From UHGV virus genome UHGV-0312576: DNA of 64,000 nucleotides. One strand, written 5' to 3'. The stretch comes from a virus. The notes under the pieces are model-generated. The model had not been told where the DNA came from. It saw only the letters and a program-made list of their open reading frames with translations, and ran no database searches. Within the stretch, counting starts at the first letter, position 1. Each line of letters starts with the position of its first letter. Made by a program: the position numbers and the translations under genes. This document shows, in pieces, positions 9,637 to 57,783 of this stretch.

Positions 9637-10347
9637 TTATTTGCATTTTCTTGCTACATAAGTAACTACCTTTGTATACAGATGACTAATTATTGAATCC
9701 CGTGGAATATCATATTCTTGTTTGCTAACAGAATACTTTAATATATTCCATCCACTAAAAATATCATTTAAATATTCCTGTATTTTTCCAGTTGAAAGGT
9801 TTACTTCAAATTGTGCGTCTAAGTTTTCTTGTGTATCTAAATTTATTTCTTTAATATCAGAATTTATTACTAAACAGACAATACCATCTTTTCGCAATCC
9901 ATTTTTGATTTCAAACAATTTTTTAATAAATGATTGTTCAGTGTCAATATGTTCTAATGCAGATATTGCCATAATAAAATCAAAGGCATTAACACTAATA
10001 TCATATTCTTCAATAGATTTTACAATTCCAATAATGTGTGAACTCACATTATGTTCTTTAGCGTTTTGACGGAGTTTTTCAATTGCAACTTCCAATAAAT
10101 CAACACATTCTACAGTACAATTTATGTTTTTATATTTTTCCGCAATGTAAATACAGTTACGACCAATACCACACCCCAAGTCCAATACTTGAAGCTTATC
10201 GTATCCGTTAAATAAAGGGCATATATCCTGTACTGTTTTTATGGGTTTACGTAACCAAGTGTTTGATTGATATAGTTTTTCATTAGTATATATCGCAACA
10301 TGTGACATTTTCTCATTCGCTCGAATATGTGCTAATCTTTCATCCAA
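9637..10347 (-). CDS. class I SAM-dependent methyltransferase (TehB-like)
   Basis: Motif I 'VLDLGCGIGRN' and overall TehB-like layout. 236 aa. Confidence 0.7.
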   Translation of the reverse strand: MDERLAHIRANEKMSHVAIYTNEKLYQSNTWLRKPIKTVQDICPLFNGYDKLQVLDLGCGIGRNCIYIAEKYKNINCTVECVDLLEVAIEKLRQNAKEHNVSSHIIGIVKSIEEYDISVNAFDFIMAISALEHIDTEQSFIKKLFEIKNGLRKDGIVCLVINSDIKEINLDTQENLDAQFEVNLSTGKIQEYLNDIFSGWNILKYSVSKQEYDIPRDSIISHLYTKVVTYVARKCK

Positions 10348-10379
10348 TTTTATTCACCTCAATAAATATATCTGTTTGA

Positions 10380-11400
10380 TACCCAAACTTTGACTAATTA
10401 TAGCATGTATTTGTGTACATGAAAACGATAAGTTCGGTGAGGAGATTCGGAAGTGAGGAGATTTCATTGAAATACAAGGGATTTTTGAGATTTTGTGGTG
10501 TGATTTAGGATGAGTGAGAGGTGTTATTTCCTTATATAAAGGTCGAGTTCGGGAAAGTGCTTGATTTATAGGGAGTTTTAGGGGGGAGGAGAGTGATTTT
10601 GCAGTATTTTGGGGCGAAAATAAATTATCTGAAAATTTAGTTTTCGTTGTAAATGCGTTGTTTTACCGAACTCGATACCGAACGTGCTTTGAGTAAATAT
10701 GTAAATTGTGTGGACGTTTGGTACAATTATAAGGGGTGTTTTGGGTGCCAGAAAGTGAAAATTTTAAGGTTATGTGTGGGTGGAACAGATAGGGGCATTT
10801 GGTGAAAATGGGATTAACTGGGAAATGTAAACATACCCCCACCTATGGTATAGACAGCAAAAACCCTTGATAAATAAGGGCAAAATCAAAAATGCGTACT
10901 TTTGTTATTAGTACGCATTGTAAATGATTTCCAACTATGTGATATAGTATTGATTACTATAAATATTGCGTTGTAAAAACAACAAAATATATCGAACTGT
11001 ATACTTGTTTAAACAAGGCTGAAATTGTCTGACAATAACATGTTTAAACAAGTTCGACACAACGCTGTTTCGACAACATAACTGGCATGGTCAATACTTC
11101 AAAATCTATCACTATCAACCATGCCAGTCGTTCCTGGATATGTTACACCTACATCAATACACACCCAATAAATCAATCTACAATCCAATACCCCACACAA
11201 CGTACCACAATCAAATCCTAGCCATTTAACATCCACACTCTAACGACTATCCACCCACATCACAAACCAGCCTTAAAACGTCTCACAATGTGTCACATCG
11301 TTCCTGGCTCCATTACAAAATCCTATCCCTACATTATAATGTCCACAATCTAATCACATATGCCCATATAGCGCACCACAACGGCCCACAATCCATTTTA
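10380..11400. other. About 1 kb non-coding tract carrying repeats, a perfect inverted repeat and a G-rich to C-rich strand-composition switch
   Basis: No ORF of 60 aa or more with an RBS on either strand. The + strand is G-rich at 10380-10870 and C/A-rich at 11050-11400. Nested long-range complementarity: GTTCGGT (10427) pairs with ACCGAAC (10678), and CGAGTTCGG (10544) with CCGAACTCG (10666). Four CCACAATC-like repeats (11177-11378). TCGTTCCTGG occurs twice. Perfect 10-bp inverted repeat CTGGCATGGT...ACCATGCCAG around 11085-11131. Confidence 0.3.
10878..10919 (-). terminator. terminator hairpin (AATGCGTAC/GTACGCATT) with a U-run on the minus strand
   Basis: 9-bp stem at 10891-10899 / 10911-10919. 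The T-run on the minus strand is the complement of 10881-10890. It would end a leftward transcript coming from the repressor gene. Confidence 0.55.
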
Positions 11401-11405
11401 CGCTA

Positions 11406-11669
11406 TCAGTCAATATCAATATATAGGTTACATCCAATAGCCTTACATAATGTGTATATAATATTGATTCCAGGATTAGGAGTCCTACCAGCTAATAAAT
11501 TACTAACTGTCTGACGTGACCATCCTGTAATATTGCAAATATCTTTTTGGCGCAATCCTTTGTCAATCATTATGTGTTTAATTTGTTTCATAATATCATT
11601 AACATTGCCACTGTATTCTAGTTTCATTCTATCCTCCAAATGGGTAGTATTATAGTATAACATATCCAC
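11406..11669 (-). CDS. XRE-family HTH transcriptional regulator (cI-like repressor, switch module 1)
   Basis: 87 aa. 'QKDICNITGWSRQTVSNLLAG' is a classic XRE helix-turn-helix. Divergent from the early + strand operon. Confidence 0.7.
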   Translation of the reverse strand: MDMLYYNTTHLEDRMKLEYSGNVNDIMKQIKHIMIDKGLRQKDICNITGWSRQTVSNLLAGRTPNPGINIIYTLCKAIGCNLYIDID

Positions 11670-13120: not shown

Positions 13121-14250
13121 TGACAGAGGAATTGACGGTGTAGCCGTGGGGAATTCAGTTTCCCAATTCCATTCGCCGTAACAAACGGTGACAATAGACG
13201 TAACTACAACGTACTATAAAAAATCGTAGGACAGATACTGCTATCTAAGTAAGTAGCAGCGTATAGGTCAAAACGATAGCTAGTGATCTTAATACCTGCC
13301 CATAAGGTAATTCGGACAATCGAGTAGGGGAAGTTCCGAAAGTGTCGTAACGTGAAACCTTATAGAGAGGGGGCGGAAAGTACCTCTTACAATAGAAAAG
13401 GGGCGGAGCTACTAACTCCACCCAATTCACGGGAACACATTGATATGTGAACCTCTCATTCGCAATTTGAGGATATCACATTTCAACGATTCTGTCAATT
13501 CTGACAGAAAAATTCCCTAAAACAAATTGAGCGCATTTTCTCATTCTGTATTTTTGACTACGGAACGTGTATTAAAGTCGCTCAAAAAAAAGAGAACTAA
13601 TAATGTGTGATATGGTGGTGTGCCTATCACATGGCAAACAAGACAGGTTTTAGAGACTGTACAAGAGGTTAAAGAAATCATAGTTGATTATTTAACACAT
13701 TCTCTAAATAGAGAAAACGGAACGAGATAAGCGCCGTAAAACTGCTATCCGTGTTAGCCGAAACACGCTGGTGACATCCGGGACGATATTAGGTAATCAG
13801 TTAAATATTATCAGATGTTACGCGAATAACCAACGCAAAAATCGGACTACCCAATAAGGGATAGACAACTACATATAAAAGTTTTGGATTATTTAAAGTA
13901 AATAGTCCAACGGTGTGGCCGTGGTAAGCTGTAACCGTGATGATAGACTTTTTCTATCATATGGATAATATCGTAGTCTTTTCAATAATTAGCGCGCTAG
14001 AGGATGGAGCGGGTGAAAATGGGGATGTGATACCATATCATAATAGGAAAGTAAACCATTGTGGACAAAAGCTAATGTTAAAGTCTAAACAGCCGTAGAG
14101 AATGAACGGCAGACGAAAGACGAAAAACTTACATATTACAGGTAGTCAATCACGACTGCTTTTTATTATTTACCATGCAAAGAATACAATCAACTTGTTT
14201 GCATGGATAAGTGATAAAGAGAATATCAACGATAAGAAGTGGAGGGAACA
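13121..14250. other. About 1.1 kb non-coding tract dense in local hairpins. Candidate structured RNA.
   Basis: No convincing ORF. Many short perfect stems, including GGGAA/TTCCC, CCGT/ACGG, CTGCT/AGCAG, TTCGGA/TCCGAA, AGAGG/CCTCT, CGTGTT/AACACG and TGTGATA/TATCACA. Repeated AGGGGCGGA motif. Confidence 0.3.
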
Positions 14251-14252
14251 CA

Positions 14253-14417
14253 ATGAATGGTACAAAAGTAATTTATGGTTACAAGGATCTTGATCATGCA
14301 ATCATGTGTACAGTAAAGGATCTGATCTTTAAAGGTATGGATATCTTAATAGTAGCAGAATGTGCAGGCGGTACAATCACGGCACCGGTTGAAATGTTTC
14401 AGTGGATGGAGGTATAA
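14253..14417 (+). CDS. small hypothetical protein (54 aa)
   Basis: GGAGGG RBS 6 nt before the ATG at 14253. In frame with ORF-track entry 14211-14417. Confidence 0.4.
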   Translation: MNGTKVIYGYKDLDHAIMCTVKDLIFKGMDILIVAECAGGTITAPVEMFQWMEV

Positions 14418-14589
14418 GCCGTGTGCAGTGCGGGATGGTTCAGAACTGGAAGTATATTCCGGAACCTGGAGTGAATGTCTAAACTATTGCCGTCAGCGGA
14501 ATTGGAAGTGGATTGCACCTCATTGGGCATTAGAATTCACTACATATCCGGTCTTATAGTTCTAAATCAATATTTCAAGGGAGGCAAGC

Positions 14590-34550: not shown

Positions 34551-34847
34551 AGCATAAAGAGAACAGAACAAACGTTCTTTTTGAGGTTGACACGAACATA
34601 TGTTTGGATTATAATAGCCATATAGCAAAAATATCTTCGAGTTAGCGAAGATACAAATAAAAAGACCCGTCCTCAAACGGTGTTGGTGCACCTCGGACGA
34701 GTCTCTTATATAATTTTTTCTAAAATGGCAGAAGCCACGCTTTATTATTACATAGTAGTATTTGTATTGTCAAGTATTTTGTTTTATATCTAAGCGATTC
34801 TGCTATTGTTCCGCGACCCAAAATTAAATAGAGAATATATCTTGATA

Positions 34848-34920
34848 GGGCTATAGCCAAGAGGTTAAGGCATCGCACTTTGACTGCGAGACTCGTGCGT
34901 TCAAATCGCACTAGCCCCAT
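34848..34920 (+). tRNA. tRNA-Gln (anticodon TTG), slightly irregular acceptor stem
   Basis: Cloverleaf drawn by hand: D arm GCC...GGC, anticodon stem TCGCA/TGCGA with loop CTTTGAC, T arm GTGCG-TTCAAAT-CGCAC. One mismatch at the acceptor end. Confidence 0.55.
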
Positions 34921-40250: not shown

Positions 40251-41444
40251 TTATTTATAAAGCTCCATCACTCTTGCATAGTAAATTCTCAAAAACTTAT
40301 TAACACCAGCCATTTTGGCTACAGTCTTGTGCTTACCTTCAGATTCTTTCTTGATGATGAACTGGTAAACAGGGTCATTCTCGGGCTTATGTACCTTGAG
40401 TGAGTGCATGACCTCATAGCAGGCTTTACGCAAGTAGGCTGAGCCACGTTTTGATATATGCCGATTGGTCCCTTCGAATTGCCCAGACTGATAAGGAGGT
40501 GCATCATTACCGGCGTAAGCATTAAGTGCTTTAGCACTGGTAAACCTCCGTACATCTCCAATCTCGGCAATCAGGATAGGGGCCAGGCGGTCTCCAACGC
40601 CATACATGGAACGGACAATGGAATACTCTGGCATTGTATAAGCGATAGACTGCATTTGTCGCAGTATCAAATCGGCTGAGGAGCTGGCTTGCTTTAACAT
40701 TAACAGGCACTGAGATAACGCAAGAGAAGTGGTAACATCGGGGCTGCGGGTGATAATGCCATCAGAGGCGGCTTGATAAATCGCAAGAGCTTTCTTTTGA
40801 GAACCCCTACATCGGTGTTTTTGGGCAAAAGCGATGTAACTATTTACAAACCGTTTTTCACCCATCTGAGAGATTTTTTCATAGCTCTGGTATTTTTCTA
40901 CGAAGTCGAAGAAAAGCGTGTTTTCCAGGTATCTGGATGAGATAGGAATGATATTTTGAATACCAGGCATGATATCATCTAACAGATTGGAGAGTTGGAC
41001 TCTGGCTTTGACTTTCATAGAAACGCTTTGACTGTATTGTCTGGACAGAAATTTTAGGTCCTCATACTTTTGGTCGGTAGGGCTGTAAGGCCTTAACTGA
41101 TATGACTTTTCTAACACAAAATGTGCAATGCGGACAGCATCCTTTTTATCAGTCTTTCCTTTTCTGATACTGTTGTCCATAAACTTTTTAACCAGGAATG
41201 GATTAATCACGAATACGGTGAATCCTGCTTCAAGCAGAGCTTTAAGAATGGGATAGTGGTAATGTCCAGTTGATTCCAAAGCGACTTTAGTCTCTTCTTG
41301 GTATGAATGAATTAAGGCTGTGAGTTGAGTAATATCGCTGATAGTATGTGAAAAGTCATGTGGCTTTGACAGAACAGTCCCATCAGAGCGAATAATTGCG
41401 ACAGTGCTTTTGGATTTAGATACATCAATACCTACAGCTAACAT
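40251..41444 (-). CDS. IS110-family transposase (distinct from IS #1)
   Basis: 'MLAVGIDVSKSKS...ALESTGHYHYPI' DEDD N-terminus. 397 aa. Confidence 0.85.
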   Translation of the reverse strand: MLAVGIDVSKSKSTVAIIRSDGTVLSKPHDFSHTISDITQLTALIHSYQEETKVALESTGHYHYPILKALLEAGFTVFVINPFLVKKFMDNSIRKGKTDKKDAVRIAHFVLEKSYQLRPYSPTDQKYEDLKFLSRQYSQSVSMKVKARVQLSNLLDDIMPGIQNIIPISSRYLENTLFFDFVEKYQSYEKISQMGEKRFVNSYIAFAQKHRCRGSQKKALAIYQAASDGIITRSPDVTTSLALSQCLLMLKQASSSADLILRQMQSIAYTMPEYSIVRSMYGVGDRLAPILIAEIGDVRRFTSAKALNAYAGNDAPPYQSGQFEGTNRHISKRGSAYLRKACYEVMHSLKVHKPENDPVYQFIIKKESEGKHKTVAKMAGVNKFLRIYYARVMELYK

Positions 41445-57084: not shown

Positions 57085-57563
57085 CGAATAGTTAATTAAG
57101 ATTATTCACTGTTTACTGAAAACTTAAAACTACAACTCATTAGACTTTTGCAGATATAGTCTCATGTAAAGCGAAAAAGAAATCTGTAAATATAATGCAA
57201 ATATTATCAAATGAAATTAAAATCTATGATAAATATTTGTATAATTTCACAAGTAAAACAGTACATATAACTTGGCATAAAATGGTGCGACCATTAGCTA
57301 AGTACATGTAAGTATTATGAAATTATACTACTATACTATAAATTATTGCTTCCAGATGCGAGAAGCGTGTACTGTAAAGCTTAAAGTTATAAGGCTCAAA
57401 AAGTAAAGCTGAAAATTCAAAGTTTAAATCATGAGTCAAAGTTGAAATAGTAAATAGTAAAGATATAAAGTTTTATCAAATCCTTGATATACAGTTTAGC
57501 ATAGTTGTACTTGGCTATAAGCATCTGCAAGGCTGGTAAATAGTGAGTAATCTATAAAAATAA

Positions 57564-57637
57564 TGGGCATTCGCCAAGCGGTTAAGGCACAGGACTTTGA
57601 CTCCTGCATTACGTTGGTTCGAATCCAACATGCCCAG
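57564..57637 (+). tRNA. tRNA-Gln (anticodon TTG)
   Basis: Acceptor TGGGCAT/ATGCCCA. D arm GCC..GGC. Anticodon stem CAGGA/TCCTG with loop CTTTGAC. T arm GTTGG-TTCGAAT-CCAAC. Confidence 0.75.
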
Positions 57638-57709: not shown

Positions 57710-57783
57710 GGATCATTAGCTCAGTTGGTCAGAGCATCCGGCTCATAACCGGACGGTCATCTGTTCGAGTCAGATATGATCCA
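57710..57783 (+). tRNA. tRNA-Met (anticodon CAT; could equally be Ile2/lysidine type)
   Basis: Acceptor GGATCAT/ATGATCC. D arm GCTC..GAGC. Anticodon stem TCCGG/CCGGA with loop CTCATAA. T arm ATCTG-TTCGAGT-CAGAT. Confidence 0.8.

What the first reader, a model, noticed from the sequence alone, without database searches (positions are those of the whole stretch)
10380..11400. A 1-kb gene-free tract with a strand-composition switch, nested long-range complementarity, iterated CCACAATC motifs and a perfect 10-bp inverted repeat
No plausible ORF exists on either strand. The left half is G-rich on the + strand and the right half is C/A-rich, and the switch point is near a strong hairpin (10891-10919). 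Nested long-range complementarity is described in the tract feature above. The right half carries four CCACAATC-like repeats, a duplicated TCGTTCCTGG, and the perfect inverted repeat CTGGCATGGT...ACCATGCCAG. The cI-like repressor gene (11406-11669, minus) would read through the right half until the terminator at about 10.9 kb. That makes a roughly 480-nt G/U-rich 3' extension. Possible roles are a large structured ncRNA, a long repressor 3'UTR with regulatory repeats, or an origin/centromere-like site for a phage-plasmid. ParB-like proteins are encoded elsewhere in the window.
Basis: seen in the sequence. Interest (0 to 1): 0.65.

Follow-up and report, generated by a model that had tools for sequence, protein, structure and literature searches.

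The report
Mirror-skewed boundary element after phage repressor
The 1-kb gene-free tract is real and is one copy of a widespread, conserved non-coding module. It sits just downstream of the immunity repressor in large gut Clostridia prophages and most likely works as a two-way transcription stop and regulatory DNA platform, not as a folded RNA.

Summary
The tract (10348-11405) is non-coding under any genetic code and matches no Rfam family. Its strand-composition switch is real: GC skew goes from +0.71 to -0.73.

The same layout recurs in at least 39 sequence-distinct copies. They come from large (67-201 kb) phage contigs and Lachnospiraceae/Clostridia genomes. On the repressor strand the order is:
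- a small repressor gene;
- a C-depleted spacer (5-11% C) whose sequence is not conserved;
- an AT-rich centre with lineage-specific palindromes and intrinsic terminators;
- a G-depleted core (4-10% G) whose sequence is conserved;
- the next operon, with its own promoter (antirepressor, RelA/SpoT-like or other accessory genes).

The core has linear motifs at fixed spacing. Examples are GGGG-N4-TTTACAT-N38-GTTCCACTCACAC, tandem TAYCGAA boxes 12 nt apart, and a near-consensus CodY-type box. It shows no conserved secondary structure or covariation. The left-right complementarity is purely compositional.

Best reading (about 0.4): a terminator hairpin, bidirectional in several relatives but not in this window, is flanked on both exit sides by G-poor, untranslatable, Rho-loading-like zones. 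Together they insulate the repressor from the neighbouring operon, and the core also carries protein-binding sites. No transcription or binding was tested. The structured-RNA, origin and centromere readings are not supported.

The parts
11406..11627 (-). Immunity-type repressor gene. It encodes 73 aa and starts at an ATG after GGAGGA. It anchors the module and its transcript runs into the tract.
   Evidence: Pfam HTH_26 E=6.9e-10, PHROG transcriptional repressor or regulator. The identical protein occurs in 628 blocks of the metagenome collection, always followed by the tract in the 7 places read.
11100..11405 (-). C-depleted zone, the untranslated 3' extension of the repressor transcript. On the minus strand it is G 34%, C 7.5%. 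Read on the plus strand it is G-depleted, with C/G 4.5, no SD-like motif and 6 start codons. It holds GATTGTGG at 11205-11212, 11343-11350 and 11386-11393, and CCAGGAACGA (minus-strand reading of TCGTTCCTGG) at 11128-11137 and 11298-11307.
   Evidence: Composition and counts. Motifs. The sequence is not conserved between lineages, but C stays at 5-11%.
11081..11128 (-). Hairpin formed by the perfect 10-bp inverted repeat CTGGCATGGT/ACCATGCCAG. The arms extend to 16 nt at 88%. A weak U-rich tail follows on the minus strand, so it may be a leaky terminator.
   Evidence: I3; -19.3 kcal/mol, tail GTTATGTT. It is not maintained in L005/L006.
10990..11080 (.). AT-rich centre. It holds two copies of the palindrome CTTGTTTAAACAAG (11003-11017, 11038-11052) around the palindrome AATTGTCTGACAATA (11023-11037). 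Two perfect TGTCGAA boxes lie on the minus strand (11053-11059, 11069-11075), and TATCGAAC is at 10990-10997. This is an operator-like cluster.
   Evidence: (D8, I7, I23). Every lineage has its own pair of palindromes followed by a YCGAAC box. In L015, L037, L019, L052 and L053 the centre or adjacent-spacer repeats recur upstream of the repressor gene.
10858..10919 (-). Tandem intrinsic terminators for the repressor strand. The first is hairpin 10919-10891 plus a U-tract. The second is hairpin 10881-10863 plus a U-tract.
   Evidence: (I19). Stems covary while the loop AAUAACA is kept: GCGTAC, CGGTA and GTGAA stems. In L004-6, L030, L010, L026 and L027 the hairpin also has a U-tail on the other strand, making it bidirectional.
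10426..10860 (-). Sequence-conserved core. On the minus strand it is G-depleted: G 9.2%, C 29.7%, 1 SD-like motif and 7 start codons, the window minimum. Plus-strand motifs are:
- ATGTAAACATACCCCC at 10825-10840;
- GTGTGGGTGGAAC at 10774-10786, exactly 38 nt before ATGTAAA;
- GAAAATTTTAAGG at 10757-10769;
- tandem TACCGAAC at 10664-10671 and 10676-10683;
- CodY-type box AATTATCTGAAAATT at 10623-10637;
- CTTGATTTATAGGGAGTTTT at 10560-10579;
- TCGAGTTCGGG at 10543-10553;
- GTTCGG at 10432-10437;
- a variable poly-G run at 10581-10586.
   Evidence: nhmmer family across 31 loci, then 39 distinct copies. Fixed spacings. CodY-type box. Composition. No consensus structure.
10397..10425 (-). Promoter of the next gene, a SAM methyltransferase at 9637-10347: TTTTCA-17-TGcTATAAT. 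It marks the left edge of the module.
   Evidence: Conservation stops here when the downstream gene differs. Other lineages likewise have their own promoter after the core.

Best explanation
The tract is a conserved non-coding boundary module of the prophage immunity region. It works mainly at the level of transcription and DNA binding, not as a folded RNA.

Shown:
- The repressor transcript runs into a C-poor untranslated stretch and meets tandem intrinsic terminators in an AT-rich centre.
- The centre carries lineage-specific paired palindromes, which look like operators.
- Beyond the terminators lies a roughly 430-nt conserved core. The next operon starts from its own promoter only after this core.
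- Read outward from the centre, both flanks give RNA that is G-poor (7-9% G; C/G 3.2 and 4.5). This RNA has almost no start codons or Shine-Dalgarno-like motifs and no above-background structure.

Inferred:
- These two G-depleted zones are Rho-loading ('C>G bubble') fail-safe terminators.
- One stops repressor read-through before it reaches the antirepressor or accessory-gene operon.
- The other stops transcription coming from the opposite side before it runs antisense into the repressor gene.
- The mirror-image skew is then simply two such zones placed back to back around a terminator hairpin that is bidirectional in several relatives but has a poor plus-strand tail in this window.
- The core carries fixed-spacing linear motifs: GGGG-N4-TTTACAT-N38-GTTCCACTCACAC, TAYCGAA boxes 12 nt apart, and a CodY-type palindrome. 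These are most simply binding sites for proteins shared by all lineages, either host factors or conserved phage proteins, that tune the adjacent promoters.
For: Conserved architecture:
- Of 26 distinct copies with enough flank, 25 have an upstream C-depleted zone of at least 150 nt and all 26 have a downstream G-depleted zone of at least 300 nt. Median lengths are 335 and 514 nt.
- The upstream regulator gene varies. It can be an HTH_26 protein of a different family or a small protein with no Pfam match.

What is conserved:
- Only composition is conserved in the upstream zone, which points to selection on base content.
- The tract skew is about 3 times the third-codon-position skew, so it is not just background mutation bias.

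Outward RNAs:
- They are G-poor, YC-rich, nearly free of SD-like motifs and start codons, and not structured.
- This matches the descriptors reported for Rut sites mapped in a Firmicute: pyrimidine-rich, G-poor, unstructured, C>G, enriched in prophages, and about 80% antisense to genes (PMC12350095).

Terminators and promoters:
- Intrinsic terminators sit at the switch point with covarying stems, and are bidirectional in several lineages.
- The next operon has its own sigma-A-type promoter after the core.
- It encodes Bro-N, AntA or P22_AR_N antirepressors, DUF3825, or a RelA/SpoT-like protein.

Motifs:
- Spacing is fixed while the sequence between motifs varies.
- CGAAC is enriched 16-fold in the tract: 6 of 22 window copies against 0.36 expected.
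- The only CodY-consensus match with 2 or fewer mismatches in 64 kb lies in the core, and it is conserved in many lineages.
- Centre or adjacent-spacer repeats recur in the switch region of several lineages.
Against: - No transcription data are available. Rho dependence is inferred from composition alone, and the authors of the Rut-mapping study state that no combination of sequence descriptors reliably distinguishes Rut from non-Rut sequences.
- A pure Rho-loading zone would not need the strong sequence conservation and fixed spacings of the core. That part of the model has no identified binder.
- The host Rho, CodY and Spo0A were not checked in these genomes.
- Sense strands in this phage are generally G-rich. 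By analogy, the left half could therefore be transcribed inward on the plus strand. In L030 a ligase gene on that strand ends 40 nt before the core.
- In the window itself, the central hairpin has a poor U-tail on the plus strand.
Confidence: 0.4

Rival explanations
1. The functional products are the inward, C-depleted RNAs. The left half would be a 430-490-nt G/U-rich, weakly structured non-coding RNA, or the 3'UTR of a plus-strand operon. It would be transcribed toward the repressor gene and end at the shared central terminator. The right half would be the repressor's long 3'UTR. Both would act through linear motifs, for example as protein or RNA sponges or as antisense regulators.
For: - Sense strands are G-rich genome-wide, so the left half looks 'sense' on the plus strand.
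- The central hairpin is bidirectional in several lineages.
- In L030 the Ku-ligase operon on that strand ends 40 nt before the core with no terminator between.
- The plus-strand RNA has 13 SD-like GGAG/GAGG/AGGA motifs.
- One helix pair, TTCGR:YCGAA, shows G-C, A-U, U-A and G-U variants.
Against: - There is no conserved promoter at the plus-strand 5' edge, and the sequence upstream of the first conserved motif differs in every lineage.
- In most lineages the neighbouring gene on that side is on the other strand and is transcribed away.
- There is no consensus structure and no stacked covariation.
- z-scores on this strand are often positive.
- There is no Rfam match.
- The TTCGR:YCGAA 'helix' is only 5 bp and is also what copies of a near-palindromic DNA site would give.
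Confidence: 0.2
2. It is a replication origin primed by R-loops. The G-rich inward transcripts would form stable RNA-DNA hybrids that prime DNA synthesis across the AT-rich centre, as in ColE1, the T4 oriF/oriG origins and lactococcal phage c2.
For: - Strong positive GC skew on the non-template strand of both inward transcripts, next to an AT-rich centre of 27% GC.
- Repeated protein-binding-like motifs are present.
Against: - The repressor transcript is expected to be made constitutively in lysogens, which would fire such an origin all the time.
- No replication genes lie nearby; the nearest is an SSB-like gene at 62 kb.
- The skew polarity (plus then minus) is that of converging leading strands, not of an origin.
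- The G content of the upstream zone falls to 16% in some lineages while its C-depletion is kept. The conserved feature is therefore absence of C, not richness in G.
Confidence: 0.07
3. It is a centromere or partition site, or a dimer-resolution site, for a phage-plasmid. Oriented motifs would converge on a central recombination or binding site, in the manner of KOPS and dif.
For: - Motif polarity converges on the centre.
- ATGTAAAC resembles the XerD arm of Firmicute dif (TTATGTAAACT), a resemblance recalled from memory.
- ParB-like (DUF6551) and tyrosine-recombinase genes exist elsewhere in the window.
Against: - No 28-bp dif-like dyad surrounds the motif (sequence read).
- There are no tandem repeats.
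- The ParB-like and recombinase genes lie 17 kb away.
- Relatives are integrated in chromosomes.
- The motif sits on the opposite strand in L032.
Confidence: 0.04
4. The skew has no function of its own. It would be a passive product of transcription-associated mutation (C to T on the non-template strand) in unconstrained DNA flanking highly expressed genes.
For: - Third-codon positions show the same direction of bias on sense strands: GC3 skew +0.25, with T3 above A3.
- T exceeds A on the G-rich strand of both halves.
Against: - The tract skew (0.7) is about 3 times the synonymous-site skew.
- The left half has no known plus-strand transcription in most lineages.
- The left half is under sequence constraint.
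- The architecture is kept over lineages whose repressors share only 44-60% identity or belong to other families.
Confidence: 0.08

Closest known systems
Rho-dependent terminators and Rut sites ('C>G bubbles'), for example lambda tR1 and the Rut sites mapped genome-wide in Bacillus subtilis (PMC12350095)
   Same: Both are untranslated, unstructured, G-poor, C- and U-rich RNA of 80 nt or more downstream of a gene. Rut sites are enriched in prophages and are frequently antisense to genes. Here the zones follow intrinsic terminators as a second line of defence.
   Different: Here the zones are very long (345-933 nt) and extreme (4-10% G). They come as a mirror-image pair around one terminator, and one of the two is strongly conserved in sequence with fixed motif spacing. 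Rho dependence was not tested.
Secondary immunity regions that keep antirepressor genes silent: P22 immI (Mnt/Arc, sar RNA), P1/P7 immI (c4 RNA) and the N15 antirepressor locus. This comparison is from my own knowledge.
   Same: Both are non-coding control regions placed before an antirepressor (Bro-N, AntA or P22_AR_N) operon in a temperate phage. Leaky transcription of that operon would cause induction.
   Different: Those systems rely on defined small antisense RNAs or dedicated repressors. No such RNA structure or complementarity is detectable here, and the antirepressor operon has its own promoter after the tract.
Distal operator sites and DNA looping in phage switches: lambda OL-OR and the coliphage 186 FL/FR sites. 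This comparison is from my own knowledge.
   Same: Paired, lineage-specific palindromes lie 0.4-2 kb from the primary switch, on the far side of the repressor gene. In L015 and four other lineages the centre or adjacent-spacer repeats recur in the switch region.
   Different: In the window itself only a 13/14-nt match links the tract (11135-11148) to the switch region (11655-11668), which is within chance. Looping does not explain the base depletion.
Large phage-associated non-coding RNAs in Rfam (GOLLD, ROOL, RAGATH motifs)
   Same: They share the habitat (gut and Firmicute phages), a size of 400-800 nt, and a gene-free setting. A RAGATH-27 RNA and self-cleaving ribozymes occur elsewhere in these phages.
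   Different: There is no covariance-model match even at E<=10, no consensus structure and no covariation.

Membership tests
Any Rfam family (including GOLLD, ROOL, OLE, RAGATH) | Covariance-model match at the family's gathering score | tested here: not met
   There is no match in the tract at gathering score. At E<=10 only noise appears, the best being RAGATH-30 at 22 bits against a threshold of 59.5. Nothing is found in the tracts of 14 relatives.
Structured non-coding RNA (generic) | Conserved secondary structure supported by compensatory changes in stacked pairs | tested here: not met
   RNAalifold gives -11/-14 kcal/mol on a 426-column alignment, -0.19 kcal/mol with one 5-bp helix on 18 sequences, and 0.0 on 27 gap-free sequences. 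The top mutual-information pairs among 37 copies are scattered and mostly not Watson-Crick.
Structured non-coding RNA (generic) | Folding energy below that of shuffled sequence | tested here: not met
   z-scores over 14 lineages run from -4.1 to +0.6 on the repressor strand and from -3.4 to +1.7 on the G-rich strand. About half are near zero or positive.
Intrinsic (Rho-independent) terminator | GC-containing hairpin followed directly by a U-tract, with the stem kept by compensatory change | tested here: met
   Two terminators lie on the minus strand at 10919-10880 and 10881-10858. Stems differ between lineages while pairing is kept.
Rho-dependent terminator / Rut site | Untranslated RNA that is G-poor with C>G, pyrimidine-dimer-rich and unstructured | tested here: met
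   The outward RNAs have G 9.2% and 7.5%, C/G 3.2 and 4.5, 83 and 58 YC dimers, 1 and 0 SD-like motifs, and the fewest start codons in the window. They show no stable consensus structure. The same holds in 26 of 26 distinct copies.
Rho-dependent terminator / Rut site | Termination that depends on Rho (lost with bicyclomycin or in a rho mutant) | not testable with these tools
   This needs transcript mapping in a lysogen. Presence of rho in the hosts was not checked here.
Iteron-type replication origin or plasmid/phage centromere | Three or more regularly spaced direct repeats of about 12-22 bp next to an AT-rich unwinding region and to rep or par genes | tested here: not met
   Tandem Repeats Finder finds nothing in the tract. 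The direct repeats found are short two- to five-copy families at irregular spacing. The neighbouring genes are Ku, a ligase, a methyltransferase and the repressor.
CodY-regulated site | 15-nt box matching AATTTTCWGAAAATT | tested here: met
   The box at 10623-10637 has 1 mismatch and is the only site with 2 or fewer mismatches in 64 kb. Conserved counterparts with 1-2 mismatches occur in many lineages. A second copy lies in the centre of several lineages, and L032 has a perfect one.
CodY-regulated site | Binding by CodY and a CodY-dependent effect | not testable with these tools
   The conserved form is AATTTTCAGACAATT, a palindrome in its own right (AATTGTCWGACAATT). A phage protein is therefore an equally good candidate binder.
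Spo0A-regulated site (0A box) | TGTCGAA boxes, often in tandem | tested here: inconclusive
   Two of the four perfect boxes in the window lie 16 nt apart in the centre. The tandem boxes in the core are mostly TAYCGAA and sit 12 nt apart, not the roughly 10-nt tandem spacing I recall for abrB. Binding was not tested.
Protein-coding gene (including stop-codon recoding) | Open frame, codon-phase substitution pattern, and a suppressor tRNA if recoded | tested here: not met
   In-frame-incompatible indels occur among close relatives.

The most novel reading that the evidence does not exclude
The module is a previously undescribed kind of phage 'immunity boundary'. It would be a bidirectional super-terminator made of an intrinsic terminator flanked by two very long G-free Rho-loading zones, and its conserved core would be read by host growth-state regulators (CodY, Spo0A~P and Rho abundance). 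Read-through into the antirepressor or accessory-gene operon, and hence prophage induction, would then be gated by the nutritional or sporulation state of the Lachnospiraceae host.
Probability: 0.15. Interest if true: 0.8.

Novelty: new variant of a known kind. Interest (0 to 1): 0.55.

Why it matters
Large temperate phages of gut Lachnospiraceae are abundant and almost unstudied. This module is their most conspicuous conserved non-coding feature. It runs 1-2.7 kb and was found in at least 39 distinct copies next to different repressor families.

If it is a two-way insulator that keeps the repressor and the antirepressor operon transcriptionally separate, it would be a general design rule for prophage stability in Firmicutes. 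It would also be a portable, orientation-symmetric terminator part. The extreme, selectable base depletion would give a simple sequence signature for finding such boundaries.

If the conserved core is read by host regulators, it would link induction of gut prophages to host physiology.

It is also a cautionary example. A long, conserved, strongly skewed gene-free tract can look like a large ncRNA and yet show no RNA structure.

Tried and rejected
- Coding potential, including TGA or TAG recoding: rejected.
- Rfam at gathering and permissive thresholds: nothing.
- BLAST against INPHARED phages and PLSDB plasmids: no relatives.
- Left-right RNA pairing (a giant fold-back): equal to composition-matched shuffles.
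- Tandem repeats or iterons: none.
- DnaA boxes: only partial TGTGG cores, with no TTATCCACA-type matches clustered (sequence read).
- dif/XerD resemblance of ATGTAAAC: there is no dyad partner, and the motif is on the other strand in L032.
- LexA (Cheo) box: only CGAAC half-sites, with no GAAC-N4-GTTC.
- TTTACAT as a -35 element: no conserved -10 at 16-18 nt, and no GTTATA as in TcdR-type promoters. An 18-nt-spaced TATCAT exists only at a second motif copy in L035.
- ECF-type -35/-10 motifs on the G-rich strand: none.
- Small conserved ORFs across TTTACAT-N38-GTTCCAC, which spans 48 nt: start and frame are not conserved (sequences).
- GATTGTGG as a Chi- or KOPS-like polar octamer: 10 copies against 2.2 expected from dinucleotide shuffles, always on the G-rich strand, but unremarkable under a higher-order Markov model.
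- Contig ends as genome termini: L007 ends inside the tract right after the poly-G/C run, but no other contig does.
Full report
**What is in the window**

The tract 10348-11405 lies between two minus-strand genes. One is a SAM-methyltransferase gene (9637-10347). The other encodes a 73-aa HTH_26 repressor-type protein (11406-11627, with its true start after GGAGGA). On the other side of the repressor gene is a typical divergent switch region, followed by a long run of small plus-strand early genes.

The wider window is a large temperate phage-like element. It carries a Ku plus ATP-ligase pair, a RelA/SpoT-like gene, an Ant-type antirepressor, two IS110 transposases, a tyrosine recombinase next to a DUF6551 protein, and an ECF-like sigma factor.

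**Checking the observation**

- The tract is non-coding. Only ORFs of 27-74 aa occur, and TAA, TAG and TGA all appear in all six frames. Mismatches to an 80%-identical relative fall 31/35/27 over the three phases. Indels among close relatives are not multiples of three, and the three tRNAs in the window are not suppressors.
- The composition switch is real. In 200-nt windows the tract holds both extremes of the whole 64 kb, +0.71 at 10441 and -0.73 at 11151.
- The hairpin at 10891-10919 is a perfect 10-bp stem. On the minus strand a U-tract follows it, and then a second terminator at 10881-10863.
- The CCACAATC copies (3 exact, 2 with one mismatch), the two TCGTTCCTGG copies and the perfect 10-bp inverted repeat are all at the stated places.
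- Two TCGTTCCTGG matches are within chance. The inverted repeat is broken without compensation in L005 and L006.
- The claimed long-range complementarity between the halves is only compositional. Duplex energies of -48 to -129 kcal/mol equal those of shuffles that keep composition, with z from -0.7 to +1.6 in 14 lineages.
- Sense strands are G-rich throughout this phage (mean skew +0.22, third-codon-position skew +0.25). The tract is therefore the extreme of a trend, about three times the synonymous-site value.

**Relatives**

The exact repressor protein is on record in 628 blocks of the metagenome collection. In the seven places read, the same roughly 1-kb gene-free tract follows it even when the next gene differs.

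Repressor homologues of 44-86% identity were traced to contigs, GTDB genomes and IMG/VR. They led to Lachnospiraceae/Clostridia genomes, including the Mediterraneibacter hominis chromosome, and to viral contigs of 49-176 kb, most above 100 kb. In most of these loci a gene-free stretch of 1-2.7 kb follows the repressor or lies one or two small genes further on.

Iterated nhmmer shows that the window's left half (10426-10860) is a sequence family shared by these loci. A pattern taken from that family (TTTACAT-N38-GTTCCACNCACAC) found 14 more IMG/VR loci and 40 metagenome loci. In total there are 39 copies that are distinct at the 9-mer level.

Many of the new loci have no homologue of this repressor. 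They carry other small HTH_26 genes, or small genes with no Pfam match, in the same position.

**The shared architecture**

Read on the repressor strand, the order is always the same:

1. A small regulator gene.
2. A zone of 137-1025 nt in which C is only 5-11%, G varies from 16 to 33%, and the sequence is not conserved between lineages.
3. An AT-rich centre of about 200-600 nt. It holds two copies of a lineage-specific palindrome, a YCGAAC box and one or two intrinsic terminators.
4. A zone of 345-933 nt in which G is only 4-10% and the sequence is conserved.
5. A promoter and the next operon.

This is documented. Of 26 distinct copies with enough flank, 25 have the C-depleted zone and all 26 have the G-depleted zone.

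The next operon encodes Bro-N, AntA or P22_AR_N antirepressors, DUF3825, or a RelA/SpoT-like protein. In the window's lineage, accessory genes (methyltransferase, Ku-ligase) have been inserted before the RelA/SpoT-like and Ant genes.

**RNA or DNA?**

Nothing in Rfam matches, in the window or in 14 relatives. Folding energies of the core are not consistently below those of shuffles on either strand.

RNAalifold finds almost nothing. It gives -11/-14 kcal/mol over 426 columns, one 5-bp TTCGR:YCGAA helix (-0.19 kcal/mol) in an 18-sequence alignment of the middle domain, and no structure at all in a gap-free 27-sequence alignment of the terminator-proximal domain. An unbiased mutual-information scan of 37 diverged copies gives scattered pairs that are mostly not Watson-Crick, with no stacks.

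The one covarying pair (A-U 9, G-C 5, G-U 2, U-A 2) lies in a motif that is nearly palindromic as DNA and occurs five times per module. It is equally what co-evolving copies of a protein site would give.

What the core does have is linear motifs at fixed distances:
- GGGG-N4-TTTACAT, then exactly 38 nt of variable sequence, then GTTCCACTCACAC.
- Two TAYCGAA boxes exactly 12 nt apart.
- A constant 165-170 nt between the outer CGAAC-type motifs.
- A 15-nt palindromic box, AATTTTCAGACAATT. In the window it reads AATTATCTGAAAATT and is the only match to the CodY consensus with two or fewer mismatches in 64 kb.

CGAAC is 16-fold enriched in the tract, and two of the window's four perfect TGTCGAA boxes lie 16 nt apart in the centre. 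Fixed spacing with free sequence in between is the signature of a DNA-protein assembly, not of an unstructured RNA.

The only clear hairpins are the terminators. Their stems covary while a loop AAUAACA is kept.

**How it most likely works**

The conserved quantity in the upstream zone is the absence of C. In the downstream zone it is the absence of G. Seen from the centre, this means that RNA made outward in either direction is G-poor.

In the window the outward RNAs have C/G ratios of 3.2 and 4.5, 83 and 58 YC dimers, one and zero Shine-Dalgarno-like motifs, and the fewest start codons of any stretch of the window. They are not structured.

These are the descriptors reported for Rut sites mapped in Bacillus subtilis. 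That study also found Rut sites enriched in prophages and mostly antisense to genes (PMC12350095).

I therefore read the module as a two-way insulator:
- The repressor transcript ends at the central intrinsic terminators. Anything that reads through enters a long Rho-loading zone before it can reach the antirepressor or accessory-gene operon, which has its own promoter after the core.
- Transcription arriving from the other side crosses the centre and enters the mirror-image zone before it can run antisense into the repressor gene. In L030 this would come from the Ku-ligase operon, which abuts the core. In several lineages the hairpin also terminates in that direction.

The upstream zone needs only composition, which explains why its sequence drifts. 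The paired palindromes in the centre look like distal operators of the lineage's own repressor. In L015, L037, L019, L052 and L053, repeats from the centre or the adjacent spacer recur upstream of the repressor gene.

The conserved core must do something more than load Rho. Its binders have to be shared by lineages with unrelated repressors, so host factors or conserved phage proteins are the candidates. CodY and Spo0A are leads from motif resemblance only.

None of this has been tested by transcription or binding data, so I give this composite reading about 0.4.

**Rivals**

- A plus-strand non-coding RNA or 3'UTR over the left half remains possible at about 0.2. Its support is the genome-wide rule that sense strands are G-rich, together with the L030 arrangement. 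Against it are the lack of any conserved promoter at its 5' edge, the outward orientation of the neighbouring genes in most lineages, and the absence of structure.
- An R-loop origin, a centromere or dif-like site, and a purely mutational skew are each disfavoured for the reasons listed under rival explanations.

**Novelty and verdict**

The parts are known kinds of things: intrinsic terminators, C>G zones and operator-like palindromes. I know of no described element that has all of the following:
- a mirror-image pair of very long, nearly G-free zones around one terminator;
- a conserved fixed-spacing motif platform in one arm;
- a conserved position between the immunity repressor and the antirepressor operon.

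Neither the literature searches nor Rfam found one. I rate it a new variant of a known kind and of moderate interest. Of the three interpretations offered, only the long 3'UTR survives, and only for the right half.

Noticed in passing
window 10581-10586: This poly-G run (poly-C on the repressor strand) inside the conserved core varies from 6 to 12 nt among otherwise near-identical relatives. The contig of L007 diverges right after it and ends about 60 nt later. It could be slipped-strand variation or an assembly or sequencing artefact.
   Followed up: partly
window 8564, 16182, 18327, 30018, 43711, 48465, 53919 (+); 11205, 11343, 11386 (-): The octamer GATTGTGG has 10 exact copies against 2.2 expected from dinucleotide shuffles. 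In the nine copies I could assign it lies on the sense strand of the local gene or transcript. Of the six plus-strand copies inside plus-strand ORFs, four are in one reading frame and two in another. It is not exceptional under a higher-order Markov model.
   Followed up: partly
window 57105-57188, 57564-57637, 57710-57783, 34846-34920: A RAGATH-27 RNA (93.7 bits) lies just upstream of tRNA-Gln and tRNA-Met genes. A second tRNA-Gln is at 34.8 kb.
   Followed up: no
L027:1504-1566 and L034:1199-1267: A pistol ribozyme and a type-P5 twister ribozyme lie a few kb upstream of the repressor in two related prophages.
   Followed up: no
L034:7350-7370 and L035:7496-7520: A second copy of the GGGGG-N-TTTACAT motif lies after a terminator and a short C-rich stretch. 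In L034 it is about 170 nt upstream of a small gene. In L035 it is spaced 18 nt from TATCAT, which looks like a sigma-A promoter.
   Followed up: partly
window about 13431-14534: This is a second gene-poor stretch of about 1.1 kb on the early-gene side. No gene is called there in the near-identical locus L001 (7094-8225). It has no extreme skew.
   Followed up: no
window 7878-9601 and 6435-7643: The element encodes a Ku plus ATP-dependent DNA ligase pair (an end-joining module) and a RelA/SpoT-like 402-aa protein (PHROG 4773). In other lineages the RelA/SpoT-like gene sits directly after the tract.
   Followed up: partly
window 10891-10919 and homologous hairpins in L010, L030, L034, L036, L068: The terminator hairpin keeps a conserved loop (AAUAACA) while its stem changes between lineages. 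A conserved loop is unusual for a plain terminator and might be a protein-binding hairpin.
   Followed up: partly
window 2310-3596 and 40251-41444: Two IS110-family transposase genes lie on the minus strand. The first region shares 77% DNA identity with an unannotated human-faecal phage record (MT837215.1), the only nucleotide hit in INPHARED.
   Followed up: no
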